In this document: positions 8,538-64,000 of the stretch, piece after piece
How the letters are laid out: every line of letters begins with the position of its first letter
Position numbering within the stretch: the stretch's first letter is position 1
Assembly: GCA_002011475.1 (NCBI GenBank)
Contig: MTNP01000008.1
Span: 4,037 to 68,036, forward strand
Reading direction: 5' to 3'
Source of the DNA: Dehalococcoides sp. JdFR-54
Lineage (GTDB): Bacteria; Chloroflexota; Dehalococcoidia; JdFR-54
DNA: 64,000 bases
The notes under the pieces: generated by a model
The model's database searches: none
Seen by the model: only the letters and a program-made list of their open reading frames with translations
What the model was told of the DNA's origin: nothing
Translations under genes and position numbers: made by a program

Positions 8538-8558
8538 TCTAAACTGAGAACAGCCATT

Positions 8559-8600: not shown

Positions 8601-8627
8601 GAGACATCATCGGGCTATTAAGGCAAG

Positions 8628-9542: not shown

Positions 9543-9608
9543 GGGGCCCTATTCCATGAATTTAGAGCGTCCCGAGAAAGGACGAATCGAGAGGAAAAGG
9601 AGACAGCG

Positions 9609-10496: not shown

Positions 10497-10503
10497 TGTT
10501 GCC

Positions 10504-11724: not shown

Positions 11725-11975
11725 AGGACATCCCTCCTCCGCCGACTTGGAATGGCTTGTCATCGGCTTTCGGTCTGGGCAAAAGTATAGAGGCTCACCG
11801 CCCCTGCGTCAAGTTTGTGCGTCGTCCTCCTCTATATTGTTGACAATCTTGCCTTCAATGGCTATACTCTTCATTGGCGTGCGTCCTATCCCCTGAATGC
11901 CGTTGGCGAGAAGGAAACCCTGACTGCGCCTTCAAAGGCGGAAAGTTTGTTGCACATCATAGGGAAGGAGGGGAA

Positions 11976-32024: not shown

Positions 32025-32087
32025 GGGGACGACACCTAGAACGCCCTTCGTTGCACGTTTCGATGCGAAGTGGGATTGCCTGGGAAG

Positions 32088-34000: not shown

Positions 34001-34004
34001 CAAG

Positions 34005-34418
34005 GTGATGGGCAAGACCGTAGTGATTGGGACCATAGGCAGTGACTGCCACGTGGTGGGCAACTGGATCATGGCTCGCAGCTTGGAGCAGGCGGGGTTT
34101 AAAGTGGTTCAATTGGGAGCCTGCGTCTCCCAGGAGGAGTTTATCGATGCCGCCGTGGAGGCCAAGGCCGATGCCATCTTCGTCTCTTCCCTCTATGGAA
34201 TGGGCCTGTTCGACTCTGAGGGGCTCAGGGAGAAGTGCATCGAGGCGGGGTTAAAGGACATCCTTCTCTACATCGGCGGCTACCTAGTGACGACCAGACA
34301 GGAATGGCCGGACATTGAGAAACAGTATAAGGACATCGGTTTCGATCGAGTGTATCCCCCCGAGACCAAGCCAGCGGTGGCTATCGCCGACCTGAAGCGG
34401 GATCTGGGATTATCCTAG
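34005..34418 (+). CDS. glmS: Glutamate mutase S subunit (B12-binding), canonical copy 2.
   Basis: MMGKTVVIGTIGSDCHVVGN...SSLYGMG...GFDRVYPPETKP is near-identical in pattern to the GlmS/MutS sigma subunit. Confidence 0.88.
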   Translation: MMGKTVVIGTIGSDCHVVGNWIMARSLEQAGFKVVQLGACVSQEEFIDAAVEAKADAIFVSSLYGMGLFDSEGLREKCIEAGLKDILLYIGGYLVTTRQEWPDIEKQYKDIGFDRVYPPETKPAVAIADLKRDLGLS

Positions 34419-34447
34419 CCCAGAGACCAAGAGGACAGGCAGAGCTT

Positions 34448-35881: not shown

Positions 35882-35911
35882 AGTATTTCCATCAGTAGAA
35901 GGGAGGGTTCC

Positions 35912-37291: not shown

Positions 37292-37432
37292 CACCGCTGG
37301 CACCTGACCACCCTCCCTTACCGCCGGGAATCCGATTTTATGCCAAGTAAGAATGGTGGAACGACGGCTGAAAGGGGCTCTTCGTGGCACGGGCTCTTTG
37401 TCTGACTTGCCTCTGGGCGTAGGAGCGAAGGC

Positions 37433-51513: not shown

Positions 51514-52746
51514 ATGAATAAGGTGACGCAGAAGTTGTTGTTGGTTTCCTTTGTGTTGATGTTCGTGATGGGTTCAGCGCTGGTGGGTTGTGCCAGGGTG
51601 GAGACCGTGACAAAGACAGTGACGACCACCGAGGCAGCAGTCACCATAACGGAGACGGTAACAGCGCCCCCGGTAACGGTAACCGCCACGCCGCCGGCAG
51701 TCACAGTGACCAAGACGACTACGGTCACCAAGGAGGTTCCCGTCACCGCCACGCCGGTGGCAATCAAGTGGCGGATGCAATCCTGTGACCCGGTGGGGAG
51801 CTTCGATTACACTGCCAACCTGGTCCAGTTCTGCGACCTGGTCAGCGAATACACCAATGGCCAGATCGAGATCACCCCTTATCCGGCCCCGGCGCTGATG
51901 AAGGCCACCGAGATGCTGGATGCTGTAACCAAGGGCGCCCTGGATGGCCTGGCCGCCTGGATGGTCTACTTCATGGGCAAGGACAAGGGCATGGAGTTTT
52001 GGTGTGAATGGCCCTACGGTGTTAATATGAGCTATGCCGATATGCTGGTCTTCTACTATGAGCTGGGGGGCAAGGAACTCTACAACGAATTTCTTGCCCA
52101 GTTCGATGCCATCGAGATAGCTTGCCCTCCCCACCCCGGCGAGCCCATCCATAGCACCGTCCCCATCCCTCGCCTGGCCGACATGCGGGGCCTGAAGATG
52201 AGGACCTACTCCATAGCGGCGCTGGTTTATACCCGGGCTGGCATTCACGTCACCCCCATCACCCCAGCGGAGCTCTATACCTCCCTGGAAAGGGGCATCA
52301 TCGATATTATGGAGTATACCAGCCTGGCCACCAACATCGGCATGAAGCTCCATGAGCCGGCCCCCTACATGATAAAGCCGGCCCACTCCACCGCCGTCCT
52401 CGGCCATAGCATCGTCCTCAAGAAATCGCAATTCGAGGCCCTGCCTGAAGACCTCCAGAGGGCAATAATGGCGGCGGCCAAGGAGATGACCCTGCGGGTT
52501 ATTCACCAGAACAAGATGCTGGAGCTCGACCTGATGCAGCGTCTGCCTGAGCTTGGCATAGAATGGCACATGTGGCCGCAAGAGGACTATGACGAGATGG
52601 CCGGGTATAGCATGGAGATATGGGAAGGTTACCTCAAGGGCCTGCATGGCATTGAGCAGACCACCGAGTTCGGCCAGAAGATGATCGATATCAAGTTGCG
52701 TTATACTGAGCTGATTCGGGAGTACGGCGACGCGGTATGTAGGTAA
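51514..52746 (+). CDS. TRAP-type substrate-binding lipoprotein, second paralogue, with LVGC lipobox and TVT-repeat linker.
   Basis: Signal peptide, lipobox L-V-G-C, TVTKTVTTTEAAVTITETVTAPPVTVTATPP linker (DNA ~51595-51760). The mature domain resembles the DctP family. Confidence 0.7.
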   Translation: MNKVTQKLLLVSFVLMFVMGSALVGCARVETVTKTVTTTEAAVTITETVTAPPVTVTATPPAVTVTKTTTVTKEVPVTATPVAIKWRMQSCDPVGSFDYTANLVQFCDLVSEYTNGQIEITPYPAPALMKATEMLDAVTKGALDGLAAWMVYFMGKDKGMEFWCEWPYGVNMSYADMLVFYYELGGKELYNEFLAQFDAIEIACPPHPGEPIHSTVPIPRLADMRGLKMRTYSIAALVYTRAGIHVTPITPAELYTSLERGIIDIMEYTSLATNIGMKLHEPAPYMIKPAHSTAVLGHSIVLKKSQFEALPEDLQRAIMAAAKEMTLRVIHQNKMLELDLMQRLPELGIEWHMWPQEDYDEMAGYSMEIWEGYLKGLHGIEQTTEFGQKMIDIKLRYTELIREYGDAVCR

Positions 52747-52867
52747 AAGTCGATCGCCAAATCAGTAAAGGTTGCCTGAGAAATGAAGAGGGGTGCTCCT
52801 GTGGAGCCAGCCACAGGAGCACCCCTCTTTATTTTCCCGCAACCCTCGGCCTGGTAAGATGGGTCGC

Positions 52868-54193
52868 CTATTTCATAAGAATCCCGGGCAACCAGATGGC
52901 CAGGGGGGCGAAGGCAGCCACCAGAACCAGGCCAGTGGCCTGGAGGCCTATGAAGGGCAGAGCTGCCACATAGATGTCGTCCATCTCCACCCCCCTAGGT
53001 GCCACCCCCTTGATGTAATACAGACAATAGCCAAAGGGTGGCGTCAGGTAAGACATCTGCATGTTGATCATGAATATTAGACCATAGTGTATGGGATCAA
53101 ACCCCAACACGTCCCTGGCCAGGGGGGCGAATATAGGAGCACAGATCAGAACTATAGCGGTGGGGTCAAGAATGCACCCCATGAGGAAGAGGATGAGCTG
53201 CATTATGGCCAGAACTATCCAGCGGTTGACCTCTAACCCCGTTATGAAGTCGCTTATGTACGCGTAACCGCCGATGCCATTAAAGGTGGCACCAAAGATG
53301 GTAGCCCCCATCACGATCCACATACACATGACGCCGATCCTAAGGCTGTCCCAGGCGCAATCGACAAAGGTTCGCACATTCATTCGGCGGCGGACGACGG
53401 CGGATATGAAGGCGCCGGCCACGCCGCAGGCGGCAGCCTCAGTGGGGGTAGCAATCCCGGCGAAGATGCTTCCCAGAACCAGGAGGATAACGAATATGGG
53501 CAGGATTATACCCCGGAGCATCAGAAACCTTTGCCCCCAGGACACCGCTGCCCGTTCTTCCCTGGGGAGGGGTGGGGCCAGGCTGGGATTGATGCCAGCC
53601 CTTATGGCTATGTAGGTGATATACAGGCCAGAAAGGACAAGACCGCAGGTTATGCCGCCGGCGAAGAGCTTGCCTATCGAGTCTCCGGTCATTGCCCCGT
53701 ACAGGATCATCAGCAGGCTGGGCGGGATAAGCTGCCCCAGGGTGCCACCGGCCATAATGGCACCTATAGTTAATGTCTTGCTGAATTTGCGTTTGAGCAT
53801 CTCGGGGAGGGCGATCATCCCCATAGGCACTACCTCGGCCCCGGCTATGCCCGTCATGGCACCGGCCACGGTGCAGATGGCCACAGTCCCCATGGTCAGC
53901 CCACCCCTGAGTGGCCCAAACCAGTGATGCATCACATTATAGAGGTCCTCGATAATCCCCGACTTCTGCAAGAGGCTGGCCATCAGCACAAACAAAGGAA
54001 CAGCCAGGAGCACGAAGCTTTTCATGGTGCCCCACACATTGGCAGGGATCAGAAATATGGCGTGCGGCCCCCAGAAGAAGTAGCCGAATACTATGCCCAG
54101 GAAGCCCAAGACAAAGGCAATGGGCAGGCCCGTTATGAGCAACACCAGCAGGCTGCCACACATCAATAGGAGTATATATTCTACAGACATCAC
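52868..54193 (-). CDS. dctM: TRAP transporter large permease (DctM family), second system.
   Basis: 441-aa polytopic protein with DctM conserved blocks (GQLIPPSLLMILYG). Confidence 0.85.
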   Translation of the reverse strand: MMSVEYILLLMCGSLLVLLITGLPIAFVLGFLGIVFGYFFWGPHAIFLIPANVWGTMKSFVLLAVPLFVLMASLLQKSGIIEDLYNVMHHWFGPLRGGLTMGTVAICTVAGAMTGIAGAEVVPMGMIALPEMLKRKFSKTLTIGAIMAGGTLGQLIPPSLLMILYGAMTGDSIGKLFAGGITCGLVLSGLYITYIAIRAGINPSLAPPLPREERAAVSWGQRFLMLRGIILPIFVILLVLGSIFAGIATPTEAAACGVAGAFISAVVRRRMNVRTFVDCAWDSLRIGVMCMWIVMGATIFGATFNGIGGYAYISDFITGLEVNRWIVLAIMQLILFLMGCILDPTAIVLICAPIFAPLARDVLGFDPIHYGLIFMINMQMSYLTPPFGYCLYYIKGVAPRGVEMDDIYVAALPFIGLQATGLVLVAAFAPLAIWLPGILMK

Positions 54194-54232
54194 GTCCTCG
54201 CCTTTATTGTCTTGTGCATAGCCCCGGTAAAC

Positions 54233-54787
54233 TCATTCGGAGGCTACAGGACCAAGAGGCGCATATTCCAGACGCGACATAACCTTGCCAGTTACGGCCT
54301 GGTATATAGACCTAGTGAACTCAGCCAAGCCCTGAAGGCCCAGAAGACCAACGGCTACGGGTATCGCCGTCTTGATGGGATAAAAGGCGGGTTTCCACAC
54401 AGAATCGGGGTTAATCTCCCTGACCCGCCACGACTCGGCAGCAAAATCATAGCCCTGCCAGAACAGGATACCAATGAAAACGAAGAAGAAGACGAAGGTG
54501 ATGGAGTCGAGGATGCCCTGCGTTCTCAGGGAAAGGCGCCTGTAGACTATGTCCAGCTTCACATGACCGCCGATGAAGAGATTGTAGGCACCAGCTACCA
54601 TAAAATAGCCGCCGAAGATCATAAAACTGGTCTCGAGGACCCAAATGGTGGGGTTATGGAAGGCATACCTCAGGATCACATCGTAGCAGATCAGGCCGGC
54701 TATGACATACATAAAAAAGCTAACAGCCCGCCCCGTCCATAGGCTGATGAAGTCAATAATCTTGAGGGGGTTCTTGGGCATGCTCAT
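54233..54787 (-). CDS. dctQ: TRAP transporter small permease (DctQ family), second system.
   Basis: 184 aa, 4 TM, immediately upstream of dctM on the same strand. Confidence 0.78.
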   Translation of the reverse strand: MSMPKNPLKIIDFISLWTGRAVSFFMYVIAGLICYDVILRYAFHNPTIWVLETSFMIFGGYFMVAGAYNLFIGGHVKLDIVYRRLSLRTQGILDSITFVFFFVFIGILFWQGYDFAAESWRVREINPDSVWKPAFYPIKTAIPVAVGLLGLQGLAEFTRSIYQAVTGKVMSRLEYAPLGPVASE

Positions 54788-55024: not shown

Positions 55025-56014
55025 TCAGGATGAGGAGACGGCTGGGGGTTCTATGGTGATTTCCTGGTCGAAATCGGTGAAAACCGCCTCGAGATAGACA
55101 TCCGTGGGCTGCTCCTCAGCGTAGGAGCTTTCTATGGTTATCCGATGAATCATCCGATCCTCCTGGCCGAACCAAACCCTTATCTTCCCCAAGAACTCCC
55201 CCTCAAGTAGTGGCAGGGCAACCATGGGCCGAACACTGCCTTCAATAATGCTACACTTAATGCCCTCTATCTCCTCCATGCCCCTCCACTTTAAGTCCTC
55301 GATCTCGGACACTATCTCCAATACCCGGGTCGGATAAATAGACGAAAGCTCTTCGGCTCCCATTACACTTTTCCTCCATGTTCCGTCCGGAACCTGCTCA
55401 TATAAATCGTTGCCAATGATGACCATCTCCGAAGAGGTGAACAATGGAGGGGCGAAAAACTCCATTGTCCCCTTGAACCTGTCGGGCAGGAGGAAGTCGC
55501 CCTCAAGGACGATGTTATATGTAGTTGTGATTTCCTCCTCCAGGATGTCCCAGATGGAGAACACGATGGAGGAGGGGCCGCTCACGGTCAGACCCTGCGC
55601 AAAATGGAAGGATTTGATATTTGACATGTTCTCCTTAACCTCGTTCCAAGCTGCCTCAAGGCTAATAACTTCTATATCCCTTTGTAACCCCCCTATCTCT
55701 ATGTGGTGGGTCCCCACCTCCCTAAATATTACGTTGAAAGATCGGGTCTCCGAGGCACCTGCTGCCAAGGTAACAACTTGATTGAGGTATTCCTCACCAT
55801 CTACCTTTACGGCTAGATTATAGTCGCCCGATCTATTGCCGATGTTGGCTACCTCCACCGCAACCACGACAGTCTCCTGAACAACTGCCTGAGCCGGGGT
55901 AATCGTCAGGTTGCTTACCTCGAAGTTGGGAGAACGGCAAGCAGCGGGCATGAGCATAAGCACCAGGCTCAGTAGAGATATACCTGCTAACTTAATGCTT
56001 GCCTTATTCGCCAC
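55025..56014 (-). CDS. Secreted hypothetical lipoprotein (CARDB-like N-terminal domain).
   Basis: Signal peptide with ...MPAAC lipobox-like Cys; no enzymatic motifs. Confidence 0.5.
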   Translation of the reverse strand: MANKASIKLAGISLLSLVLMLMPAACRSPNFEVSNLTITPAQAVVQETVVVAVEVANIGNRSGDYNLAVKVDGEEYLNQVVTLAAGASETRSFNVIFREVGTHHIEIGGLQRDIEVISLEAAWNEVKENMSNIKSFHFAQGLTVSGPSSIVFSIWDILEEEITTTYNIVLEGDFLLPDRFKGTMEFFAPPLFTSSEMVIIGNDLYEQVPDGTWRKSVMGAEELSSIYPTRVLEIVSEIEDLKWRGMEEIEGIKCSIIEGSVRPMVALPLLEGEFLGKIRVWFGQEDRMIHRITIESSYAEEQPTDVYLEAVFTDFDQEITIEPPAVSSS

Positions 56015-56230
56015 AGGACTTTCCCTGAAACCGTTTTGCCTCGCCCAGATGAAACAGGAGTGGGAATATTATACAATAAGTTCAGTCAATGCTGTAAAGG
56101 GAACTAATGCCGAGACGCCTCAGCTTGCATTGACCCCTTATGCAACGTGAAAACGGATTGACACAAAAGCAAGTCTGGCATAAACTTATAATGCTGGCCG
56201 GACTGCGGCCAAGCTATAAACCATCAAAGA

Positions 56231-57373
56231 ATGAGGACCCTAATGGAACAGGAGCTCGGCGAACTTGTGGCGGCCAACTCGGAGACCAATAGGACAAAAT
56301 GGGCTCTAGAGTATAAGGCGCAGGGTAAAAAGGTGATAGGGGTGTTTGACCCCCATATGCCCGAGGAACTGATTCATGCCGCCGGCATGTTGCCCTGGAG
56401 GGTCACCGGCACATGGAAGGATAGCATCCCCCTGGCCTCCGTCTATCGGCTGGCCATAAGCTGCGGCTACCCCAATCACGTCTTGGAGTCGCTCTTGGCC
56501 GGCGAGCTTGACTTTCTGGATGGGGCCGTCTTCACCGCCTGGGACGACGATATGAGAACCCTATATGATAACTTCTATTTCTCGGGCAAGATCCCCTTAG
56601 TGCATATCATGTATTTGCCGCACAAGGCGACTAAACTGACCCTTAACTACTGGGCCGGAGAGGTAGAGAGACTCAGGAAGAGGCTGGAGGAGTTTGGGGG
56701 CAAAAGGATCGACCATGCCAGCCTGAGTCACTCGATGGCGGTCTTCGACGAGATGCGCTCGCTTCTAATGAAGCTTTACCAACTGCGCCGGGGGGCTAAG
56801 CCTGCTATCAGCGGTGCCGAAGCCCTGGGGATAACTATAGCTGCCAGGGTTATGCCCAAAGAGGAATTCACTCGAAGGCTGCGGGGCCTGCTTCCTTATC
56901 TGGCAGGCCGTGAAGCCCCCCTGAAAGGGGTTAAACCCCGTTTATTGGTCTCCAGCGATTTCCTGGACGATCCAAGATATCTGGGTCTCATAGAAGACAC
57001 AGGCGCCGTGGTAGCTATGGACGACTTGGATACCGGGAGCCGATATTTCTGGAATGGGATGGCCAAGCCTGGGGGTGACCTCATCCTGGCCCTAGCTAGG
57101 TATTACCTGACTCGCCCCGCCGACCCCCACACTGACAAGTGGGCTGAGGAAGTGGGGCAGGTCATCCAATGGGCGAGGGACTTCCGCGTCGATGGGGTGA
57201 TCCAATTGGCCTTGACCAATTGTTTCCCTCGGGAGACCAGGCTCACCTATTTCAGCCAGGAGTTGACCAAGGCGGGCATCCCTAACATGACCTTCAAGCG
57301 GGACTATCAACTAACCAAAGAGGGTCAACTGCGAACCAGGATAGAGGCCTTCCTGGAGACCCTGGAAGGATAA
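56231..57373 (+). CDS. 2-hydroxyacyl-CoA dehydratase family subunit (HgdB/HadC/FldC-like).
   Basis: 380 aa with 2-hydroxyglutaryl-CoA dehydratase D-component fold and conserved Cys (ALTNCFPRE). Confidence 0.75.
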   Translation: MRTLMEQELGELVAANSETNRTKWALEYKAQGKKVIGVFDPHMPEELIHAAGMLPWRVTGTWKDSIPLASVYRLAISCGYPNHVLESLLAGELDFLDGAVFTAWDDDMRTLYDNFYFSGKIPLVHIMYLPHKATKLTLNYWAGEVERLRKRLEEFGGKRIDHASLSHSMAVFDEMRSLLMKLYQLRRGAKPAISGAEALGITIAARVMPKEEFTRRLRGLLPYLAGREAPLKGVKPRLLVSSDFLDDPRYLGLIEDTGAVVAMDDLDTGSRYFWNGMAKPGGDLILALARYYLTRPADPHTDKWAEEVGQVIQWARDFRVDGVIQLALTNCFPRETRLTYFSQELTKAGIPNMTFKRDYQLTKEGQLRTRIEAFLETLEG

Positions 57374-57422
57374 TAGGGTGTCCCGATTCAATGCCATCTA
57401 AAAATAGCTGGGAGGTAGGGTC

Positions 57423-58712
57423 ATGCACATGGAGTTCTTAGAAACAGAGATCGCCAAATACCAGAGGCGGATAGACAAGATCAAGGCCAACCCCGATCCC
57501 ACCAAGCTCAAGAGCAATCTGCAAATGTATGAGCTAGAACGGGACGAACGCATAGCAGAGCTGGAGGCCTGGAAACAGGGGAAACCCTTTGCCAGTGGGA
57601 TGTTCCCCCCCGTTTTGCTCAGATCTATGGGGTTCGAGATCTATGATGCCGAGATGGCCTGTGACCGGATGGAAAGATGGCAGGTCAAGAAATACCTTCA
57701 GCGGTGCCGAGAGCTGGGCTTCCCAGACCAGATCTGCGACCGCACCGTGCTCAAGATACCGATGGTGCTGGATGAGGACTTCCCCAATCTGAGCCTGGTG
57801 GTGGCCAACAACTGGGAATGCGAGAGTATCCCCCTCACCTTCCAGACCATAGCCCACCTGCGCGGTATCCCCTACTACTACTTGGACGTCCCCTTTGAGG
57901 CCAACGAGGAGACGCTTCAGTATGTGGTGGAGCAACTGCGGGAGCTCATCGACCTCGCCGAATCCACGGTGCCCGGCATCAAGTACGATGAAGACAAGCT
58001 CATCGAAGTTCAGAACATCGAGAAGCGCTGGTACGAGCTATATCAGGATATCCACAGACTCAAGCGGAGGGTCCCCTGCCCGGTTCCCGGACAGGAGGCC
58101 TTTAAGGAGCCTCGCTGGCCTTCCCTCTACCATGACCCGGCCCGGGCCTTGGAGGTATTCCGGATCTACCACGATGAGATAGTGGAAAGGGCAGAAAAGG
58201 GGATTTCCAATGTCCCCGAGGAGAAGCTGCGGCTAATGTGGGCGGTAAGCGGCCCCTTCTATGCCCGTCCTGACCCCTTTAGCATATTGGAGAAGCGGGG
58301 GGCGCAGGCCATCTACTTCCAGATCGGGAATGCCAGCCGGGTCGCCGGCATAAACTTCGGGATCTATGGCGATGAGACGGAATACGGGCGAAAGCTGTCA
58401 CCTTTGGAAGAGGAAGCCCGGATCCTTAATCAGTCCGCCTGGGGCGGCCTGGGGAGACGGTGGGTGGATGACATCCTGATAGCCTGTCGCGACCTCAAGC
58501 TCGATGGCATCGTCTACTTCCAGCAGTGGGGGTGCACGGTGACCGACAATCTGGCCAAGAACGTGGCCGAGGTTGCAGAACAGGAACTGGGCATCCCCAC
58601 CCTGATTATAGAGGGACGGCTGCTCATAGATGAGGCCTTCGACCCGCAAGAGATGGAGGACAAGCTAAACGGCTTTGTGGATATCTGCCTCGCTCGGAAG
58701 GGAATCGCCTGA
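57423..58712 (+). CDS. 2-hydroxyacyl-CoA dehydratase family subunit (HgdA/HadB/FldB-like).
   Basis: 429 aa; Cys ligands (NNWECES, QQWGCTVTDN) in the pattern of HgdA-type subunits. Confidence 0.75.
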   Translation: MHMEFLETEIAKYQRRIDKIKANPDPTKLKSNLQMYELERDERIAELEAWKQGKPFASGMFPPVLLRSMGFEIYDAEMACDRMERWQVKKYLQRCRELGFPDQICDRTVLKIPMVLDEDFPNLSLVVANNWECESIPLTFQTIAHLRGIPYYYLDVPFEANEETLQYVVEQLRELIDLAESTVPGIKYDEDKLIEVQNIEKRWYELYQDIHRLKRRVPCPVPGQEAFKEPRWPSLYHDPARALEVFRIYHDEIVERAEKGISNVPEEKLRLMWAVSGPFYARPDPFSILEKRGAQAIYFQIGNASRVAGINFGIYGDETEYGRKLSPLEEEARILNQSAWGGLGRRWVDDILIACRDLKLDGIVYFQQWGCTVTDNLAKNVAEVAEQELGIPTLIIEGRLLIDEAFDPQEMEDKLNGFVDICLARKGIA

Positions 58713-58815
58713 TCAGCCTTGACTCGCCCTTCCCCGGCGGTGAAGAGGAGCCTCGGCGTTCCGAGCCGCAGTGGCGGCCAAAGGAGGCGAGGCTCTTATT
58801 AAGGAAAGGAGAGGC

Positions 58816-60015
58816 ATGCTGGCACTAGAGGGCATACGAGTTATTGACCTGTCGCGGCTGGCCCCCGGGCCCTATGGCACCATGCTCCTGGGAGACCTGG
58901 GTGCCGATATTATCAAGGTGGAAAGGCCACCCCTGGAGGGCATGAAGCGGCTGACCTCGAAGCTGCCCTACTTGATAGAGGACTCCGACGATGAAAGAAC
59001 CATGGCCTTTCTGGCCACCAATCGCAATAAGCGAAGCATCATCCTCGACCTGAGGCAGGTGGAGGCCCGGGAGGTCTTCTACAAGCTGGTGGGCACAGCC
59101 GATGTCCTATTGGAGCAATTCCGGCCCGGGGTGGTGAGGCGGCTGGGTATAGACTACGATACCCTCAAAGGGATAAATCCCCGACTTATCTACTGCTCCC
59201 TCTCCGGCTATGGGCAAGACGGCCCCTATCGAGACCTGGTGGGGCACGACATAAACTACATTGCCATGGGCGGCTTTCAGGGCATGGTGGGCAACCGCCA
59301 GGGCCCGGCCATCCCCATGAACATCGTTGCCGACTATGCGGCGGGCGGGATGCATGTTGCCATCGGCATCCTGGCCGCCTTAATTGCCAGGGAAAAGACC
59401 GGCCGGGGGCAGTACCTAGACCTGGCCATGGTGGATGGTGTCGTTTCCCTCCTCGCCGCCGAGGTCTCCCGCTACCTGGTCACCGGCGTTGAGCCCAGGT
59501 GGCAAGAGTCAATGAACAATGGAGCTGTGCCCTGGTACAATATCTATGAGACCAAAGACCACAAATACATCAGCATCGGCTGTATAGAGCCCCACTTCTA
59601 TGAGCAATTGTGCCGTGTCCTGGGAAGGGAGGACCTCATCCCATATCAGGCTGCCACCGGCGAAAAACTCGAGGAGATTTTCTCCATCTTCAGGGAAATC
59701 TTCAAGACCAAGACCAGGGACGAATGGTTTGACATTATGCGCCAGGCGGATAATATCTGCGTGGGCAAGGTCTACTCCTTAGGGGAGATGCTGAATGACC
59801 CGCAGGTGCTTCACCGCCAGATGATTGTGGAGGTGGATCACCCCAAATTCGGCAAGATCAAGCAGGTCGGCATCTCCGTCAAGCTCTCGGACACGCCCGG
59901 CCAGATCAGGGGCACCGGCGCCTACCCCGGCGAGAATAGCGAGGAGATCTTGCGGGAACTGGGCTATTCCAAGGACGAGATTGGCACTCTGAAAGAAAAA
60001 GGAGCCGTGAGATAG
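58816..60015 (+). CDS. Family III (CaiB/BaiF) CoA-transferase, tandem copy 1.
   Basis: LEGIRVIDLSRLAPGPYGTMLLGDLGADIIKVERP; start at ATG 58816 after AGGAGAGG. Confidence 0.85.
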   Translation: MLALEGIRVIDLSRLAPGPYGTMLLGDLGADIIKVERPPLEGMKRLTSKLPYLIEDSDDERTMAFLATNRNKRSIILDLRQVEAREVFYKLVGTADVLLEQFRPGVVRRLGIDYDTLKGINPRLIYCSLSGYGQDGPYRDLVGHDINYIAMGGFQGMVGNRQGPAIPMNIVADYAAGGMHVAIGILAALIAREKTGRGQYLDLAMVDGVVSLLAAEVSRYLVTGVEPRWQESMNNGAVPWYNIYETKDHKYISIGCIEPHFYEQLCRVLGREDLIPYQAATGEKLEEIFSIFREIFKTKTRDEWFDIMRQADNICVGKVYSLGEMLNDPQVLHRQMIVEVDHPKFGKIKQVGISVKLSDTPGQIRGTGAYPGENSEEILRELGYSKDEIGTLKEKGAVR

Positions 60016-60057
60016 AGGCAGGGGGGAGACCCTGAGGGATCTTGTGGAGGGTAAAGC

Positions 60058-61272
60058 ATGCCGGAACAGGCCTTGAGCGATGTACGCATATTAGACCTGA
60101 CTCAGTACATTGCCGGCCCCTTTTGCACCAAGCTACTGGCCGACTTTGGGGCTGACGTAATCAAGATCGAGAGGCCAGATGGTGGCGACCCGGCCAGAAG
60201 GTTAAGGCCTTTCTTCAAGGACGAGGCCCATCAGGAAAAGAGCGGCCTATTCCTATACCTCAATATGAATAAGCGAGGCATAACCCTCAACTTGAAGAAT
60301 GCCCTGGGGGTGAAGATCTTCAAGGAGCTGGTGAGGCAGGCCGATGTGGTGGTGGAGAGCTTCAGGCCGGGGGTGATGGCTCGCCTGGGACTCGACTACG
60401 AAACCCTGGAGAAGCTCAACCCTAGGCTGGTCATGACCTCCATCTCCAACTTCGGGCAAACGGGCCCCTACCGCGATTACAAAAGCTCCGAACTCATCCT
60501 CTACGGAATGGGCGGCGAAATGTACAGCTCGGGCTTGCCTGACCGGGAACCGGTGAAAAACGCGGAGACTGTTTCCCTATACCAGGTTGGGGCTGCGGCT
60601 GCTACCGGCACTATGGGGGCACTGCTGGGCAGCCGACTGCAAGGGATAGGGCAGCACGTGGATATGAGTATGCAAGAAGCCCTCACCGCTGCCGCCCCGG
60701 ACAGGAAGAGCACCGTCATGATAGCCTATCAGTTCTGCGGGGAGATCCATCCCCGATTTCCTGGCTATGAGACGGGCTACCCCTATGGGGCTCATCCCAC
60801 CGCCGATGGCTATGTGGAGATATTCGGCGGACGGGCCTACTGGTCCAGGATAGTAAAGATGCTGGGGGAACCCGAGATCCTGAAGGATCCCAAGTGGCTA
60901 GAACCTACAGCCCAAGCCAATCCGGCCCTCAAGGAAGAATTCGAAGCCCTTTTCCTGGCCTGGTCTATGGAGCGCACCAAACGCCAGGTCATGGAGGAGG
61001 GCCAGGCGGCCAGGGCGCCGGTGGGCGCCATCTTGACCATCGACGAGGTGATTAACGACCCCCACTTCAACGAACGTGGGCTTTTCATCGAGGTCGACCA
61101 CCCGGTGGTGGGCAAATTGAAGTACCCTGGCCGGCCATTCATCATGTCCGAAACCCCCTTTCAAGCCAGAAGACCGGCCCCTCTCCTGGGTCAACACAAC
61201 GAAGAGGTCTATGGAGAACTGGGATACACGGGCGAGGAGATCGCCCGACTTCGAGAATGGGGAGTTATTTGA
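60058..61272 (+). CDS. Family III (CaiB/BaiF) CoA-transferase, tandem copy 2.
   Basis: VRILDLTQYIAGPFCTKLLADFGADVIKIERP; SD GGAGGG. Confidence 0.85.
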   Translation: MPEQALSDVRILDLTQYIAGPFCTKLLADFGADVIKIERPDGGDPARRLRPFFKDEAHQEKSGLFLYLNMNKRGITLNLKNALGVKIFKELVRQADVVVESFRPGVMARLGLDYETLEKLNPRLVMTSISNFGQTGPYRDYKSSELILYGMGGEMYSSGLPDREPVKNAETVSLYQVGAAAATGTMGALLGSRLQGIGQHVDMSMQEALTAAAPDRKSTVMIAYQFCGEIHPRFPGYETGYPYGAHPTADGYVEIFGGRAYWSRIVKMLGEPEILKDPKWLEPTAQANPALKEEFEALFLAWSMERTKRQVMEEGQAARAPVGAILTIDEVINDPHFNERGLFIEVDHPVVGKLKYPGRPFIMSETPFQARRPAPLLGQHNEEVYGELGYTGEEIARLREWGVI

Positions 61273-61300
61273 GGACAGGGTAACGGGGGAGGATTGCCAA

Positions 61301-62608
61301 ATGACCAAGCTACCTCTGGAGGGCATAAGGGTGGTGGAGCTGGGCGTGGCCTGGACTGGCCCCTGCGCCGCTATGATACTGGCCGACTTCGGGGCTGAGG
61401 TGATCAAGGTAGATACGGTTAACTTCTGGCAGACCCAGGGCCGCGGTATGGTGGCAAGACCCACCAAAGAGATGCTGGCCACTCAAACCCCCCACTCCGG
61501 CGGTTACCCCAACAAAGAGCCGGGCGAATACCCCTGGAATTGCTGGCCTGTATTCGTCACCGGGGGCAGAAACAAGCTCAGCATGAGCGTGCGCGACCTG
61601 AGAGAGCCGGAGGGCAGGGAGATATTTCTGAGGCTGATAAAGATAAGCGATATCTTCATCGAAAACAATCATCCCGATACCATGCCCAAGCTCAACCTTG
61701 ACTATGAGGTTCTTAAGGAAGTGAAACCAGACCTGATCATGGTTCGTTCATCTGCCACCGGTTTAAGCGGCCCTTATCGGGATTATCGAGCCCATGGAAG
61801 CCAGCTGGACGCCATTTGCAGCCATTCCTCGCTAAGGGGCTACCGCGATATGGACCCCTCGGCCAATACCCCGGTTTTCATCACCGACTATCTGGGGGCC
61901 TGCTTTTCGGCCCTGGCCGCCATGATGGCCCTGAACTACCGCCGGCGCACCGGGAGGGGACAGTTGATCGAGGTGGCTCAGGTGGAAACCGGCGCAGTCT
62001 GCCTTGGGGAAGCTATGATGGACCACTCCATGAATCAGAGAGTCCGCACCACCCAAGGCAACCGGGATATCCACGGTGCGGCGCCCTGTGGCTGCTACCG
62101 CTGTGCCGGAGAGGACCGCTGGGTCAACATCACCGTCACCTCGGATGAGGAATGGCAAGGCCTGTGCCGCGCCCTGGGCAACCCCCCCTGGACCCAGGAG
62201 GAGCGCTTCTCCGATGCCCGCAGCCGGTATGAAAACCAGGATGCCCTAGATCAATACATTGAGCAGTGGACAAGCCAGCGAGACCACTATGCGGTAATGC
62301 ACCTACTTCAAAAAGAAGGTGTGCCAGCAGGCCCAGTTATGGATGCCCGGGATACCTACAACGACCCCCACCTTAAGGAGCGGGGCTTCTTGGTGCCAGT
62401 CAGTCACCGGGACTGTGGTAACTACCTCCATCCTGGGGCTGCCTGGAAGCTTTCCAAAACCCCCATCACCATTCGCAGACCACCGGTCCGTTTTGGCGAG
62501 GATAACGAATACGTATACAAGCAGCTCCTCGGATTCTCAGACGAGGAATATGCCGAGTTGGAGAGGAAGGGGCATATCAGCGACGGGCCGGCGCCTCACA
62601 TTCCGTAA
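61301..62608 (+). CDS. Family III (CaiB/BaiF) CoA-transferase, tandem copy 3 (longer variant with insertion).
   Basis: LEGIRVVELGVAWTGPCAAMILADFGAEVIKVD; ATG 61301 after GGGGGAGG. Confidence 0.82.
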   Translation: MTKLPLEGIRVVELGVAWTGPCAAMILADFGAEVIKVDTVNFWQTQGRGMVARPTKEMLATQTPHSGGYPNKEPGEYPWNCWPVFVTGGRNKLSMSVRDLREPEGREIFLRLIKISDIFIENNHPDTMPKLNLDYEVLKEVKPDLIMVRSSATGLSGPYRDYRAHGSQLDAICSHSSLRGYRDMDPSANTPVFITDYLGACFSALAAMMALNYRRRTGRGQLIEVAQVETGAVCLGEAMMDHSMNQRVRTTQGNRDIHGAAPCGCYRCAGEDRWVNITVTSDEEWQGLCRALGNPPWTQEERFSDARSRYENQDALDQYIEQWTSQRDHYAVMHLLQKEGVPAGPVMDARDTYNDPHLKERGFLVPVSHRDCGNYLHPGAAWKLSKTPITIRRPPVRFGEDNEYVYKQLLGFSDEEYAELERKGHISDGPAPHIP

Positions 62609-62716: not shown

Positions 62717-63145
62717 CTAAGTTTCCTGCACCACTGTGGGCTTCACCCTTTCGCCTGTTGGCAGGTAGACATCCTCCGAGCTCACAGGCCTTAAGGGCTG
62801 TCCCACAATGTATAGATACCGCCAGGTGGTATCGCCGGTATTGGTATGCGGGCCATGAACTGCATTTGGCCTTACATAGATGCTATCGCCCGGCTCCACC
62901 TCATACTCTTTCCCCTCAACCCTATAAATACCCTTTCCCGCTAAAAAGTACATAACCTCATCACAGTTATGTACATGGGCCCCGATTTCCAGGCCTGGTT
63001 CTAGCTCGATCATGCCTAGCCTGAATTGTTGGATCCCTGTATTCTCGTGGTAAACCAGGCTCCTGGTCAGGTAGGAATCCCTGGCACCGGACTTGATAGG
63101 CATTCGTTCTACCTTGCCTTCTCCCCTTTTGATGTGAACCTTCAT
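62717..63145 (-). CDS. Cupin-2 domain protein.
   Basis: GAHVHNCDEVMYFLAGKG...VHGPHN cupin core. Confidence 0.6.
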   Translation of the reverse strand: MKVHIKRGEGKVERMPIKSGARDSYLTRSLVYHENTGIQQFRLGMIELEPGLEIGAHVHNCDEVMYFLAGKGIYRVEGKEYEVEPGDSIYVRPNAVHGPHTNTGDTTWRYLYIVGQPLRPVSSEDVYLPTGERVKPTVVQET

Positions 63146-63359: not shown

Positions 63360-64000
63360 GTGAAGCTAACTCGTGATGAGCAAGATATGCTAGAGGGCAA
63401 AGAGGGACGGGCCAAGCAAAGGGCCATGGAACTCCTGGTACAGTATGGAGAAGCCCTCGGCGCAGAGCGCTTCGTAGACACGAACAATGTACACCTGCTC
63501 ATAGGGTTCTATCCCTATCCACAGATGGTCACACCCCGGGACAGCGACGAATTGATCTCCAAATTCCTCCTAGATACCGACGAGAGAATAGTTGTGGACC
63601 GTGTTAAGTCCTTCAACACCACCCACATCTGGGCCATAGACCTGGAACGTTGGCAGGTAATGGAAGCCTCTGAAAGCTTGCACGAACTGATGGAGGTCAT
63701 CAAGAAGTACTGCATCAGAACGGGCGTCAGCATCACCGCCACTTGCACGCCCTACCAGATAGGAAACGTCCCCACCAAGGGAGAACACTGTGCCTGGACG
63801 GAGTCCTCAGCGGTGCCCTTCTGCAACGCTGTGCTGGGGGCCCGCACCAATACCGAAGCGGCCCACAGTGCCTTCGCCATAGCCCTCACTGGCAAGGTGC
63901 CCCTTTCCGGATTCCATATAGACGAGAACCGCCTGGGCACCCACTTAATCGATGTCGAGCTTGATGTCAATGATGTGCTGGAATGGTATCTTTTAGGTTA
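63360..64000 (+). CDS. AcnX-type (DUF521) hydro-lyase catalytic subunit, 5' partial (runs off the window).
   Basis: VKLTRDEQDMLEGKEGRAKQRAMELLVQYGEALGAERFVDT... resembles the AcnX N-terminus (LTKEE..ML.G..G.A.QKAMELLV..G...GAE). The strong AAGGAGG SD precedes the GTG start; no stop before the window end. Confidence 0.6.
   Translation, partial: MKLTRDEQDMLEGKEGRAKQRAMELLVQYGEALGAERFVDTNNVHLLIGFYPYPQMVTPRDSDELISKFLLDTDERIVVDRVKSFNTTHIWAIDLERWQVMEASESLHELMEVIKKYCIRTGVSITATCTPYQIGNVPTKGEHCAWTESSAVPFCNAVLGARTNTEAAHSAFAIALTGKVPLSGFHIDENRLGTHLIDVELDVNDVLEWYLLG

What the first reader, a model, noticed from the sequence alone, without database searches (positions are those of the whole stretch)
56231..62608. 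2-hydroxyacyl-CoA dehydratase pair followed by three tandem family-III CoA-transferases, without an activator ATPase in view
HgdAB/HadBC/FldBC-type radical dehydratases need an ATP-dependent activator (HgdC/HadI/FldI). They are classically paired with one family-III CoA-transferase (FldA, HadA). Here three paralogous CaiB/BaiF transferases (one with an insertion, 465 aa) follow the dehydratase and no activator gene lies within 8 kb on either side. The LarA-type 2-hydroxyacid racemase homologue 6 kb upstream would fit a 2-hydroxyacid -> (R)-2-hydroxyacyl-CoA -> enoyl-CoA route, for example a 2-hydroxyglutarate or citramalate/2-hydroxy-methylsuccinate branch.
Basis: partly seen in the sequence, partly recalled or inferred. 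Interest (0 to 1): 0.65.

Follow-up and report, generated by a model that had tools for sequence, protein, structure and literature searches.

The report
Radical CoA-ester enzyme, partner lacks iron-sulfur
This five-gene operon from an uncultured Dehalococcoidia bacterium encodes the catalytic pair of an undescribed branch of the oxygen-sensitive radical enzymes that dehydrate or reduce CoA-bound acids; its helper subunit has lost its iron-sulfur cluster ligands, and the ATP-driven electron pump found next to most relatives is not nearby here.

Summary
The five genes are real, but the labels need revising. The "dehydratase pair" (56243-57373 and 57423-58712) belongs to Pfam HGD-D. It is not an HgdAB/HadBC/FldBC orthologue. 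[quoted passage not shown]

In that clade the catalytic subunit keeps the three-cysteine [4Fe-4S] site. The partner subunit has replaced most of the six cluster cysteines, mainly with aspartate.

In 7 of 9 informative loci sampled through the catalytic subunit, the pair lies within 10 kb of two BcrAD/BadFG ATPase genes. That is the reductase-type layout, not a single activator. This window has none in 56 kb upstream or 10 kb downstream. Database searches found no orthologue attributable to this genome, but the whole genome could not be scanned.

The "three transferases" are of two kinds:
- One is an alpha-methylacyl-CoA-racemase-like protein. It has the His/Asp dyad and recurs next to this clade.
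- The other two form a BbsEF-like pair, and one of them lacks the catalytic aspartate.

The substrate and the reaction type remain unknown. I rate this a new variant of a known kind, of moderate interest.

The parts
56243..57373 (+). N-like (BzdN/HadC/BcrC-type) partner subunit, 376 aa; the longest ORF starts at 56231. At the six BzdN [8Fe-9S] ligand positions it has Asp36, Cys74, Asp101, Asp263, Asp294 and Cys327 (codons at 56348, 56462, 56543, 57029, 57122, 57221).
   Evidence: PF06050 6e-65. Best PDB match is BzdN 8s02_B at 2.5e-46, with HadC at 6e-30. Ligand mapping is, using the ligand list in PMC11971306. The Cys-depleted pattern is shared by the whole clade. dN/dS is 0.14 against a sister contig.
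57423..58712 (+). O-like (BzdO/HadB/BcrB-type) catalytic subunit, 429 aa. Cys105, Cys133 and Cys371 (codons at 57735, 57819, 58533) are invariant and correspond to BzdO Cys95/128/380. The clade-specific Cys-Asp-Arg motif is at residues 105-107. Ile136 stands where BzdO has the catalytic His131.
   Evidence: PF06050 1e-34. At least 191 homologues have E <= 1e-5, and none of the named ones among the 120 listed is an isolate. The profile scores 1e-33 against BzdO and 4.5e-26 against HadB. dN/dS is 0.089.
58816..60015 (+). T1: family-III CoA-transferase-fold protein of the alpha-methylacyl-CoA racemase type, 399 aa. His144 lies in a GHDINY motif (codon 59245) and Asp173 is at codon 59332.
   Evidence: PF02515 2e-109. 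Best PDB match is MCR 1x74 at 3e-63. His126 and Asp156 of MCR align to His144 and Asp173. It is 44-49% identical to the family-III genes next to the N/O pair in L007, L017, L028 and L013.
60058..61272 (+). T2: BbsE-type (chain A-like) family-III subunit, 404 aa. Leu174 (codon 60577) occupies the position of the catalytic aspartate.
   Evidence: PF02515 1e-100. Best PDB match is benzylsuccinate CoA-transferase chain 9fn0_A at 4.8e-56. Chain A also lacks Asp at that column, while SUGCT has it.
61301..62608 (+). T3: BbsF-type (chain B-like) family-III subunit, 435 aa. The catalytic Asp196 is present (codon 61886). An insertion lies within residues 41-85 (61421-61555).
   Evidence: PF02515 1e-93. 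Best PDB match is 9fn0_B at 5.2e-58, and the next best is only 1e-35. The start is supported by the gene call and the Shine-Dalgarno sequence. The insertion is shown.
56015..56242 (.). 228-bp divergent intergenic region upstream of the operon, with a promoter-like site at 56158-56186 (+).
   Evidence: Consensus scan only: 10 of 12 hexamer matches. This is not evidence of function.
51514..54787 (.). TRAP transporter genes: DctP 51514-52746 (+), DctM 52868-54193 (-) and DctQ 54233-54787 (-). This is a candidate importer for the acid substrate. The association rests on proximity only.
   Evidence: Pfam matches for DctP, DctM and DctQ. TRAP or Tct carboxylate transporters also flank relatives in L007, L017, L024 and L028.

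Best explanation
**What the operon encodes.** It encodes the catalytic heterodimer of an uncharacterised clade of the class-I benzoyl-CoA reductase / 2-hydroxyacyl-CoA dehydratase (BCR/HAD) radical enzyme family, together with its own CoA-ester supply.

**Shown:**
- The O-like subunit keeps the three-cysteine [4Fe-4S] site with one open iron. In BzdO and HadB that is where the thioester substrate is attacked.
- The N-like subunit derives from a six-cysteine double-cubane ancestor and has lost most ligands. The heterodimer therefore probably carries only the catalytic cluster.
- Both genes are under purifying selection.

**Inferred pathway:**
1. A carboxylic acid, probably a 2-substituted dicarboxylate, is imported by the neighbouring TRAP system.
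2. The BbsEF-like T2/T3 heteromer converts it to its CoA thioester, using succinyl-CoA or the pathway's own product as the CoA donor.
3. The racemase-like T1 sets the configuration at C2. Alternatively, T1 acts as a second, HadA/FldA-like transferase.
4. The N/O enzyme, once its cluster is reduced, carries out low-potential one-electron (ketyl-radical) chemistry on the thioester.

**Reaction type.** I favour an elimination or dehydration of an alpha-substituted acyl-CoA that recycles the electron, over a two-electron Birch-type reduction. The electron-storing double cubane and the BzdO proton donor His131 are both missing.

**Source of the electron.** It should come from a heterodimeric BcrAD/BadFG ATPase, as encoded beside most relatives. 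In this genome that ATPase must be encoded elsewhere.
For: **Family and closest relatives:**

**Catalytic cluster site.** The three catalytic cysteines are invariant in 114 homologues and align with BzdO Cys95/128/380 (PMC11971306).

**Partner subunit.**
- It has Asp, Cys, Asp, Asp, Asp, Cys at the six ligand positions of BzdN.
- The 50%-identity representatives closest to it are mostly Cys-depleted (24 of the 27 full-length sequences aligned from the top-scoring hits; 3 keep five or six of the cysteines), with conserved acidic residues at columns 100 and 263. More distant representatives mostly keep all six cysteines.
- The depleted sequences form one clade, sister to six-cysteine proteins.

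**ATPase genes in relatives.** Two adjacent BcrAD/BadFG genes, each keeping both cluster cysteines, occur in L007, L009, L010, L013, L015, L017 and L021. That is 7 of the 9 informative loci sampled through the O subunit. They also occur in L024, L027 and L028, which were sampled through the ATPase.

**Selection.** dN/dS is 0.089 for O and 0.14 for N against a 91%-identical sister contig. That contig also has N and O adjacent.

**The family-III genes.**
- T2 and T3 match chains A and B of benzylsuccinate CoA-transferase respectively, and only T3 has the catalytic Asp.
- T1 has the racemase His/Asp dyad and recurs in relatives' loci.

**Context.** Relatives always pair the enzyme with CoA ligases or transferases and with carboxylate transporters.

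**Missing reductase residues.** BzdO His131 is Ile136 here, and the Glu65 column is not conserved.
Against: - No ATPase gene was found for this organism. It is absent from the 71 kb of the contig that I could read. It is also absent from the best 120 database hits for either ATPase subunit, although a co-evolving orthologue (about 60% identity expected) should have been listed.
- The closest solved homologue is a reductase, and two ATPase genes per locus is the reductase layout. Both points argue against my preference for dehydratase-like chemistry.
- Relatives' neighbours include enoyl-CoA hydratase, SDR, old-yellow-enzyme, NMO and a molybdenum hydroxylase. These resemble anaerobic aromatic or alicyclic acid pathways.
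- The substrate is unknown.
- T1 keeps the aspartate that transferases use, so the racemase assignment is not exclusive.
- Loss of the cluster is inferred from sequence. Aspartate can ligate iron-sulfur clusters.
Confidence: 0.55

Rival explanations
1. The pair is the catalytic module of a class-I-BCR-like, ATP-consuming two-electron reductase. It would dearomatise or reduce a carboxylated aromatic, alicyclic or enoyl-CoA, and its BzdPQ-like ATPase genes are simply unlinked in this genome.
For: - BzdN and BzdO are the best solved matches, and BzdN/BzdO are also the top NCBIfam models.
- Relatives carry two distinct ATPase genes, as in BcrAD/BzdPQ.
- BZD-type ATPase and catalytic dimers are predicted to associate only transiently (PMC11971306).
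- Neighbours in relatives are typical of benzoyl-CoA-like pathways: enoyl-CoA hydratase, SDR, OYE, CoA ligases and a Mo-hydroxylase.
Against: - The [8Fe-9S] cluster proposed to store the two electrons is not ligated: only 2 of 6 cysteines remain.
- The His131 proton donor is absent, and Glu65 is not conserved.
- NCBIfam scores are far below the cut-offs: 154 against 454, and 51 against 449.
- This window has family-III transferases rather than ligases, in an amino-acid and dicarboxylate fermentation context.
Confidence: 0.25
2. One reading: a canonical (R)-2-hydroxyacyl-CoA dehydratase route (2-hydroxyglutarate, citramalate or similar). It would be fed by the LarA-type racemase and activated by a single HgdC/HadI-type activator encoded elsewhere.
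For: - The Pfam family and a three-cysteine alpha-type site are shared with HadB.
- Family-III genes lie in the operon, as in hadA/fldA operons.
- A LarA homologue and an SDR lie 5-7 kb upstream.
- The window is rich in C5-dicarboxylate and glutamate enzymes.
Against: - HadB and HadC models score 46 and 117 bits against cut-offs of 750 and 700.
- The beta-subunit three-cysteine site is not kept: Cys, Asp, Cys here and Cys, Asp, Ser in three relatives.
- Relatives have two ATPase genes, not one.
- T1 has the racemase GHD motif. T2/T3 resemble BbsEF rather than a single FldA/HadA-type transferase.
- The LarA gene is separated from the operon by a transporter and a divergent block, and it is below its own family cut-off.
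Confidence: 0.13
3. The pair works without any dedicated ATPase in this lineage, being reduced directly by a low-potential ferredoxin or flavodoxin. Alternatively, it has taken on a non-redox role.
For: - There is no ATPase gene in 56 kb upstream or 10 kb downstream.
- A second relative (L018, on a 69-kb contig) has none within 10 kb.
- No attributable orthologue appears among the best database hits, even though the search was sensitive enough.
- Both genes are still under purifying selection.
Against: - Absence from a partial contig view of a metagenome-assembled genome is weak evidence. About 29 kb of this contig, and all other contigs, could not be read.
- Every biochemically studied member of the family needs the ATPase (PMC7317905).
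- 7 of 9 relatives keep the ATPases linked.
Confidence: 0.07

Closest known systems
BzdNO(PQ), BZD-type class I benzoyl-CoA reductase of Aromatoleum sp. CIB (PDB 8S02; PMC11971306)
   Same: - It is the best solved match for both subunits.
- Both are heterodimers of two HGD-D paralogues.
- The catalytic subunit has a three-cysteine [4Fe-4S] site with an open iron (Cys95/128/380 correspond to Cys105/133/371).
- Relatives of the window pair are encoded with two different BcrAD/BadFG ATPase genes.
- Arg53, Arg267 and Arg290 of BzdN are kept.
   Different: - Only 2 of the 6 cysteines that hold the BzdN [8Fe-9S] cluster remain; the other four are Asp.
- His131 is replaced by Ile136, and the Glu65 column is not conserved.
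- A clade-specific Cys-Asp-Arg motif replaces Cys-Ser-Tyr, and that Tyr97 binds the thioester oxygen in BzdO.
- No ATPase genes lie nearby here.
- Scores are far below the equivalog cut-offs.
HadBC/HadI (R)-2-hydroxyisocaproyl-CoA dehydratase of Clostridioides difficile (PDB 3O3M), and the FldABC/HgdAB/LcdAB group
   Same: - They share the Pfam family and the catalytic three-cysteine cluster.
- The operon is associated with family-III CoA-transferase genes.
- Both show a trend of cluster loss relative to the double-cubane ancestor.
   Different: - The HadC-type partner keeps three cysteines for a [4Fe-5S] cluster; here one of the three is Asp, and in three relatives checked a second is Ser.
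- Dehydratases have one homodimeric activator gene, while this clade has two different ones.
- Similarity is weaker than to BzdNO.
- The operon's family-III genes are racemase-like and BbsEF-like. From my memory of the FldA/HadA sequences, which was not tested here, those carry a GFD motif rather than GHD.
Double-cubane cluster proteins (DCCP; PDB 6ENO, 7YYL) and YjiM
   Same: The N-like subunit scores almost as well against the NCBIfam double-cubane model (147 bits) as against BzdN (154 bits). Its nearest non-degenerate relatives have the six-cysteine motif.
   Different: DCCPs are homodimers carrying the complete 6-7 cysteine motif. The window protein has lost the motif and is paired with a distinct catalytic paralogue.
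BbsEF succinyl-CoA:(R)-benzylsuccinate CoA-transferase (PDB 9FN0)
   Same: T2 best matches chain A and T3 best matches chain B. The genes are adjacent. Only the chain-B-type protein keeps the catalytic aspartate.
   Different: - Identity is about 30-35%.
- T3 has an extra insertion in residues 41-85.
- The window has no benzylsuccinate synthase, and none of the remaining bbs genes was recognised in the Pfam tables of the called genes.
- The acid substrate is unknown.
- T2's margin over SUGCT is small (193 against 186 bits).
Alpha-methylacyl-CoA racemase (MCR, M. tuberculosis, PDB 1X74)
   Same: It is the best solved match of T1 (3e-63). The catalytic His126 (in GHDINY) and Asp156 are both conserved.
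   Different: - T1 is 399 aa, against 360 aa for MCR, and has a transferase-like C-terminal extension.
- SUGCT scores nearly as well (194 against 217 bits).
- The conserved aspartate is also the transferase nucleophile, so a transferase function is not excluded.

Membership tests
2-hydroxyacyl-CoA dehydratase (HgdAB/HadBC/FldBC/LcdAB) | Two PF06050 subunits encoded side by side | tested here: met
   PF06050 at 6e-65 and 1e-34; 49-bp spacer.
2-hydroxyacyl-CoA dehydratase (HgdAB/HadBC/FldBC/LcdAB) | Catalytic (alpha) subunit with a three-cysteine [4Fe-4S] site | tested here: met
   Cys105, Cys133 and Cys371 are invariant in 114 homologues and align to the HadB/BzdO ligand regions.
2-hydroxyacyl-CoA dehydratase (HgdAB/HadBC/FldBC/LcdAB) | Partner (beta) subunit with three cysteines holding a [4Fe-4S]/[4Fe-5S] cluster | tested here: not met
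   At the three columns where HadC has Cys, the window has Cys74, Asp101 and Cys327. Relatives L007, L009 and L010 have Cys, Asp, Ser.
2-hydroxyacyl-CoA dehydratase (HgdAB/HadBC/FldBC/LcdAB) | One homodimeric HgdC/HadI-type activator gene with the dehydratase genes | tested here: not met
   There is none in the window or 10 kb beyond it. Relatives carry two different PF01869 genes.
2-hydroxyacyl-CoA dehydratase (HgdAB/HadBC/FldBC/LcdAB) | Equivalog-level similarity to a characterised dehydratase | tested here: not met
   The HadC model scores 117 bits (cut-off 700) and the HadB model 46 bits (cut-off 750).
2-hydroxyacyl-CoA dehydratase (HgdAB/HadBC/FldBC/LcdAB) | ATP-activated syn-elimination of water from an (R)-2-hydroxyacyl-CoA | not testable with these tools
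   Requires anaerobic enzymology.
Class I benzoyl-CoA reductase (Bcr/Bzd/Mbd) | Four genes: two HGD-D subunits plus two different BcrAD/BadFG ATPase subunits | tested here: not met
   The window has only the HGD-D pair. The four-gene set is present in 7 of 9 relatives sampled through the O subunit.
Class I benzoyl-CoA reductase (Bcr/Bzd/Mbd) | BzdN-type subunit with six cysteines for the [8Fe-9S] double cubane (Cys36/73/100/263/293/327) | tested here: not met
   The window has Asp, Cys, Asp, Asp, Asp, Cys at these positions. The depletion is clade-wide.
Class I benzoyl-CoA reductase (Bcr/Bzd/Mbd) | BzdO-type three-cysteine aqua-[4Fe-4S] site | tested here: met
   Cys105, Cys133 and Cys371 align to Cys95, Cys128 and Cys380.
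Class I benzoyl-CoA reductase (Bcr/Bzd/Mbd) | Acid/base residues Glu65 and His131 beside the cluster-bound water | tested here: not met
   His131 aligns to Ile136. The Glu65 column is variable in the clade consensus. The N-terminal alignment is less certain for Glu65.
Class I benzoyl-CoA reductase (Bcr/Bzd/Mbd) | Equivalog-level similarity | tested here: not met
   BzdN scores 154 bits (cut-off 454), BzdO 51 bits (cut-off 449) and BcrC 99.5 bits (cut-off 421).
Double-cubane cluster protein (DCCP) | Six or seven cysteine motif in each subunit | tested here: not met
   The N-like subunit has 2 of 6. The O-like subunit has only the three-cysteine set.
BbsEF-type heteromeric family-III CoA-transferase (T2+T3) | Two adjacent paralogous PF02515 genes, each matching a different subunit | tested here: met
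   T2 scores 4.8e-56 to 9fn0_A and 1.2e-45 to 9fn0_B. T3 scores 5.2e-58 to 9fn0_B, and chain A is not within 1e-20. The spacer is 28 bp.
BbsEF-type heteromeric family-III CoA-transferase (T2+T3) | Catalytic aspartate present in only one of the two subunits | tested here: met
   T3 has Asp196, aligned to the Asp of 9fn0_B. T2 has Leu174 where 9fn0_A has Tyr and SUGCT has Asp.
BbsEF-type heteromeric family-III CoA-transferase (T2+T3) | Physical alpha2beta2 complex with succinyl-CoA-dependent activity | not testable with these tools
   Requires protein work.
Alpha-methylacyl-CoA racemase (T1) | His126/Asp156 catalytic dyad | tested here: met
   His144 (in GHDINY) and Asp173 align to them. The other family-III proteins in the alignment have no His at that position.
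Alpha-methylacyl-CoA racemase (T1) | Clear separation from CoA-transferases by overall similarity | tested here: inconclusive
   MCR scores 217 bits and SUGCT 194 bits. No racemase model appeared among the NCBIfam matches.

The most novel reading that the evidence does not exclude
This clade would be the next step in the stepwise loss of iron-sulfur sub-clusters proposed for the BCR/HAD family: DCCP has 2x[8Fe-9S], BzdNO has [8Fe-9S]+[4Fe-4S], and HAD has [4Fe-5S]+[4Fe-4S]. Here the heterodimer would keep only the catalytic [4Fe-4S], and the partner's former cluster pocket would be filled by conserved aspartates, either as a salt-bridged or as a new metal site. On this reading the ATPase must deliver its electron straight to the catalytic subunit. 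In the window's lineage, where no ATPase can be found, the enzyme would be the first member of the family to run without a dedicated ATP-driven activator.
Probability: 0.1. Interest if true: 0.85.

Novelty: new variant of a known kind. Interest (0 to 1): 0.55.

Why it matters
The BCR/HAD enzymes reach some of the lowest redox potentials known in biology. Their mechanism is usually discussed as two iron-sulfur centres in the catalytic dimer that are charged by an ATPase.

This clade is widespread in Dehalococcoidia, Desulfobacterota-type and Peptococcaceae metagenome genomes. Its partner subunit has given up its cluster ligands while staying under purifying selection. That makes it a natural test of what the second cluster is for, and of where the ATPase docks.

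There is also a practical consequence. These genes are currently annotated as '2-hydroxyacyl-CoA dehydratase' or 'benzoyl-CoA reductase subunit BcrC/BadD/HgdB'. Metagenome surveys that use such labels to infer aromatic degradation or amino-acid fermentation in subsurface Chloroflexota are probably over-interpreting them.

Two further points sharpen annotation of family-III paralogues:
- One family-III gene next to this clade is racemase-like.
- The tandem pair looks like a BbsEF-type heteromer with one catalytically dead subunit.

Tried and rejected
- **Exact look-up of the 380-aa ORF of the first gene failed.** The public gene call starts four codons later.
- **A 40-sequence alignment was too diverse for the genome scan.** A 15-sequence one worked, but this organism's genome (GCA_011170395.1) is not in that collection, so its other contigs could not be scanned.
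- **An attempt to extend the view of the contig failed.** I searched the JGI collection with a protein near the end of locus L001, and it returned only relatives at 56-67% identity, not the contig. About 29 kb of the contig remain unread.
- **The first ATPase probe was a poor choice.** That subunit is only 30-35% identical across the clade.
- **The second ATPase probe was sensitive enough, but found nothing attributable to this genome.** That subunit is 51-76% identical across the clade, and the expected identity here is about 60%. The best hits that I looked up belong to other samples. Cluster look-up gave no sample identifiers for the remaining JGI/Logan candidates P0433, P0460, P0470 and P0482, so an unbinned ATPase from the same community is not excluded.
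- **No homologue of the catalytic subunit occurs in the plasmid collection.**
- **Literature searches found nothing on this clade.** Searches combining Dehalococcoidia with dehydratase or reductase terms returned only annotation-level mentions. A family review describes only 3-Cys and 7-Cys classes of partner subunit.
- **Rejected: that the ILVD_EDD gene upstream belongs to the pathway.** It passes the IlvD equivalog cut-off and is probably a biosynthetic housekeeping gene.
- **Rejected: that the pair is decaying.** dN/dS is 0.09-0.14.
- **Structure prediction was not run.** Homology to solved structures is already unambiguous, and model coordinates could not be inspected.

Full report
**Provenance**

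The window is part of contig DUEO01000008.1 (104,258 bp) of GCA_011170395.1. Window position 1 corresponds to record position 4063. The same sequence occurs in a Logan assembly of SRR3723048. NCBI names the organism "Dehalococcoidia bacterium", and the second gene of the finding is HEX78195.1.

**The observation**

Five + strand genes fill 56231-62608. Pfam assigns the first two to HGD-D (PF06050; 6e-65 and 1e-34). It assigns the next three to CoA_transf_3 (PF02515; 2e-109, 1e-100 and 1e-93).

Public gene calls and Shine-Dalgarno sequences put the starts at 56243, 57423, 58816, 60058 and 61301. The products are therefore 376, 429, 399, 404 and 435 aa. The 465-aa figure comes from an upstream ATG that overlaps the previous gene.

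Spacers are 49, 103, 42 and 28 bp. The flanking genes (a CARDB protein and a cupin) are on the other strand, so the block reads as one operon. A promoter-like site lies at 56158-56186, but this is only a consensus match.

No PF01869 (BcrAD_BadFG) gene is present among the called genes from record 3671 to 75334. That span runs from 392 bp before the window to 7.3 kb after it. A BcrAD HMM that I built from 120 homologues finds nothing in any six-frame ORF of the window or of locus L001, although it detects every ATPase in the related loci.

**What the HGD-D pair is**

The first protein is the BzdN/HadC/BcrC-type partner subunit. Its best solved matches are BzdN (8s02_B, 2.5e-46), HadC (6e-30), MbdN and the double-cubane proteins.

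The second protein is the BzdO/HadB-type catalytic subunit and is much more divergent. Alone it scores 2e-9 to BzdO and 8.5e-5 to HadB. As a 40-sequence profile it scores 1e-33 to BzdO, 4.5e-26 to HadB and 7e-19 to DCCP.

NCBIfam gives the same order, and every score is far below the equivalog cut-offs:

| Model | Score (bits) | Cut-off (bits) |
|---|---|---|
| BzdN | 154 | 454 |
| HadC | 117 | 700 |
| BzdO | 51 | 449 |
| HadB | 46 | 750 |

The catalytic subunit has at least 191 homologues in the 5.8-billion-protein collection. Where an annotation is given, it is only "2-hydroxyacyl-CoA dehydratase" or "BcrC/BadD/HgdB". A further locus belongs to a Peptococcaceae MAG.

**Cluster ligands**

The BzdNO structure paper lists two sets of ligands (PMC11971306). 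Cys36/73/100/263/293/327 of BzdN hold the [8Fe-9S] double cubane. Cys95/128/380 of BzdO hold the catalytic aqua-[4Fe-4S] cluster, with Glu65 and His131 as acid/base residues.

In the catalytic subunit, Cys105, Cys133 and Cys371 are invariant in 114 homologues and align to the BzdO triad. Two differences stand out:
- His131 aligns to Ile136, and the Glu65 column is not conserved.
- Where BzdO has Cys95-Ser-Tyr97, with Tyr97 bound to the thioester oxygen, the clade has an invariant Cys-Asp-Arg.

In the partner subunit, the six ligand positions read Asp36, Cys74, Asp101, Asp263, Asp294 and Cys327. This is a property of the clade, not of this one sequence:
- Among the 150 best 50%-identity representatives, 24 of the 27 full-length sequences aligned from the top-scoring hits are Cys-depleted, and 3 (P0128, P0139, P0141) keep five or six of the cysteines. 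The depleted ones have conserved Asp/Glu at column 100 and Asp at column 263.
- Most of the more distant representatives have all six cysteines.
- In a neighbour-joining tree the depleted sequences form one clade, sister to six-cysteine proteins.
- The arginines that surround the distal sub-cluster in BzdN (Arg53, Arg267, Arg290) are kept. I infer that Asp-Arg pairs now fill the former cluster pocket.

A review of the family describes partner subunits only with 3-Cys or 7-Cys motifs (PMC7317905). I found no description of a Cys-depleted class.

**Relatives and the ATPase question**

Neighbourhoods of relatives show a consistent core.
- The N-like and O-like genes lie with two adjacent PF01869 genes of about 260 aa in L007 (Peptococcaceae, 57% identity), L009, L010, L013, L015, L017 and L021.
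- That is 7 of the 9 informative loci found through the O subunit. The exceptions are this window and L018.
- Three further loci found through the ATPase (L024, L027, L028) have the order N-ATPase-ATPase-O.
- Both ATPase types keep the two cysteines expected to bridge a [4Fe-4S] cluster.
- One ATPase type is conserved (51-76% identity) with canonical nucleotide motifs. The other is fast-evolving (30-35%) with degenerate motifs.

Two different ATPase subunits is the class I reductase layout. Dehydratases have one homodimeric activator (PMC11971306; PMC7317905).

I could not find an ATPase for this organism. Its genome is not in the scannable genome collection, and an attempt to extend the contig failed. 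Neither ATPase query returned a hit with this genome's source and name signature among the best 120. Calibration on other loci predicts about 60% identity for a co-evolving orthologue of the conserved subunit, which is inside the listed range. This is suggestive, not conclusive, because about 29 kb of the contig and all other contigs remain unread.

The pair is not decaying. Against a 91%-identical sister contig (L030), dN/dS is 0.089 for O and 0.14 for the last 171 codons of N. N and O are adjacent there too.

**The three family-III genes**

*T1 (58816-60015)*
- It best matches alpha-methylacyl-CoA racemase (1x74, 3e-63).
- It conserves both catalytic residues: His126 corresponds to His144 in a GHDINY motif, and Asp156 corresponds to Asp173.
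- It is the family-III type that recurs next to the N/O pair in other phyla, at 44-49% identity to the genes in L007, L017, L028 and L013.

*T2 (60058-61272) and T3 (61301-62608)*
- T2 best matches chain A of benzylsuccinate CoA-transferase (9fn0, 4.8e-56).
- T3 best matches chain B of the same enzyme (5.2e-58; the next best hit is only 1e-35).
- T3 keeps the catalytic aspartate (Asp196).
- T2 has Leu174 at that column, and chain A likewise lacks the aspartate.

So the "three paralogous transferases" are a probable acyl-CoA racemase plus a probable two-subunit, BbsEF-like CoA-transferase. T1 could alternatively be an extra transferase, since it retains the nucleophile.

**Wider context**

The window is a dense island of organic-acid and amino-acid fermentation genes. 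It contains:
- two methylaspartate-mutase E/S sets with a MutL-type reactivase and a PrpD-like protein;
- methylmalonyl-CoA-mutase-like genes;
- two acetyl-CoA hydrolase/transferase genes;
- CitE-like and HMG-CoA-lyase-like lyases;
- a class I fumarase/tartrate dehydratase pair;
- succinyl-CoA-synthetase-like genes;
- a thiol:fumarate-reductase-like pair;
- a split glycyl radical enzyme with its activase;
- two TRAP systems.

AcnX-type hydratase subunits follow the operon. This setting favours a small, probably dicarboxylic, acid as substrate, but it does not identify it.

Neighbours differ between relatives: CoA ligases, an enoyl-CoA hydratase, SDRs, OYE, NMO, a Mo-hydroxylase, family-I CoA-transferases, and Tct/TRAP/ABC/MFS transporters. 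The clade therefore probably spans several substrates.

**Interpretation**

The pair is a member of the BCR/HAD superfamily. It fails defining features of each characterised family, as set out in the membership table.

The family-level mechanism is a low-potential electron injected by an ATPase into an open-site [4Fe-4S] cluster, which then attacks a CoA thioester. That is well founded for the O subunit.

Which reaction follows is not settled:
- For a dehydratase-like, electron-recycling reaction: the electron-storing cluster and the Birch proton donors are absent.
- For a reductase: the BzdNO affinity, the two ATPase genes and the neighbours in some relatives.

I favour the dehydratase-like reaction only slightly. 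The missing ATPase is most simply explained by unlinked genes in an incompletely viewed genome.

**Verdict**

The finding is a new variant of a known kind, and the Cys-depleted partner subunit is the most interesting element, more so than the absent activator.

Noticed in passing
window 6076-9542: A glycyl radical enzyme is split across two reading frames. A 133-138-aa PFL-like ORF lies at 6076-6492. A 649-aa ORF at 6588-8537 matches positions 154-786 of the PFL2/glycerol-dehydratase model, and HypD and sulfopropanediol dehydratase are the next best models. A radical-SAM activase follows at 8628-9542, and a TRAP transporter precedes it at 2885-6002. The split is either a frameshift or an assembly error.
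   Followed up: partly
window 32070-38839: There are two consecutive methylaspartate (glutamate) mutase sets. Both E subunits pass the equivalog cut-off (415 and 397 bits against 390). A PrpD/MmgE-family protein with only weak PrpD similarity and a MutL/GlmL-type reactivase follow. Duplicated mutases suggest that one has a substrate other than glutamate.
   Followed up: partly
window 28572-31887 (- strand): A fumarate-reductase-like flavoprotein (586 aa) sits beside an iron-sulfur subunit that carries a CCG domain. This is the thiol:fumarate-reductase-like architecture. A second SdhA/SdhB-like pair lies downstream of the window at L001:16308-18370.
   Followed up: no
window 63360-64000, continuing in L001:13303-14990: AcnX large and small (swivel) subunits lie directly downstream of the operon. 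The best model is cis-3-hydroxy-L-proline dehydratase at 278 bits, below the 700-bit cut-off. A divergently transcribed cupin lies at 62717-63145.
   Followed up: partly
window 223-11763 and record positions before the window: Two more family-III CoA-transferase genes occur besides the three in the finding. One is at 10504-11763 (-), and one runs off the window start (a 393-aa product, L002:1-491). That makes at least five in about 70 kb.
   Followed up: no
L007:8373-9943, L009:2679-4261, L010:12579-14169, L013:11893-13482 and other related loci: The two ATPase subunits of this clade evolve at very different rates. One is 51-76% identical across loci and has canonical GIDIGS / DMGGQD motifs. 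The other is only 30-35% identical and has degenerate nucleotide-binding motifs. Both keep the two cluster cysteines. This suggests that only one ATP site is fully functional.
   Followed up: partly
window 46344-48005: The ILVD_EDD protein upstream passes the dihydroxy-acid dehydratase (IlvD) equivalog cut-off (737 bits against 618). It is probably a housekeeping branched-chain amino-acid gene embedded in the catabolic island, not a sugar-acid dehydratase feeding the operon.
   Followed up: yes
window 55025-56014 (- strand): A 329-aa protein whose only Pfam match is a CARDB domain (5e-08), with no NCBIfam match. It is transcribed divergently from the operon, next to the TRAP membrane subunits. 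Its role is unknown.
   Followed up: no
L013:8193-10644, L015:9148-11575, L021:12431-14859: The Dehalococcoidales relatives also carry a tandem pair of divergent family-III genes, only 28% identical to each other, between the N/O pair and the ATPase genes. This may be another heteromeric transferase. The catalytic-aspartate column of one member aligns ambiguously.
   Followed up: partly
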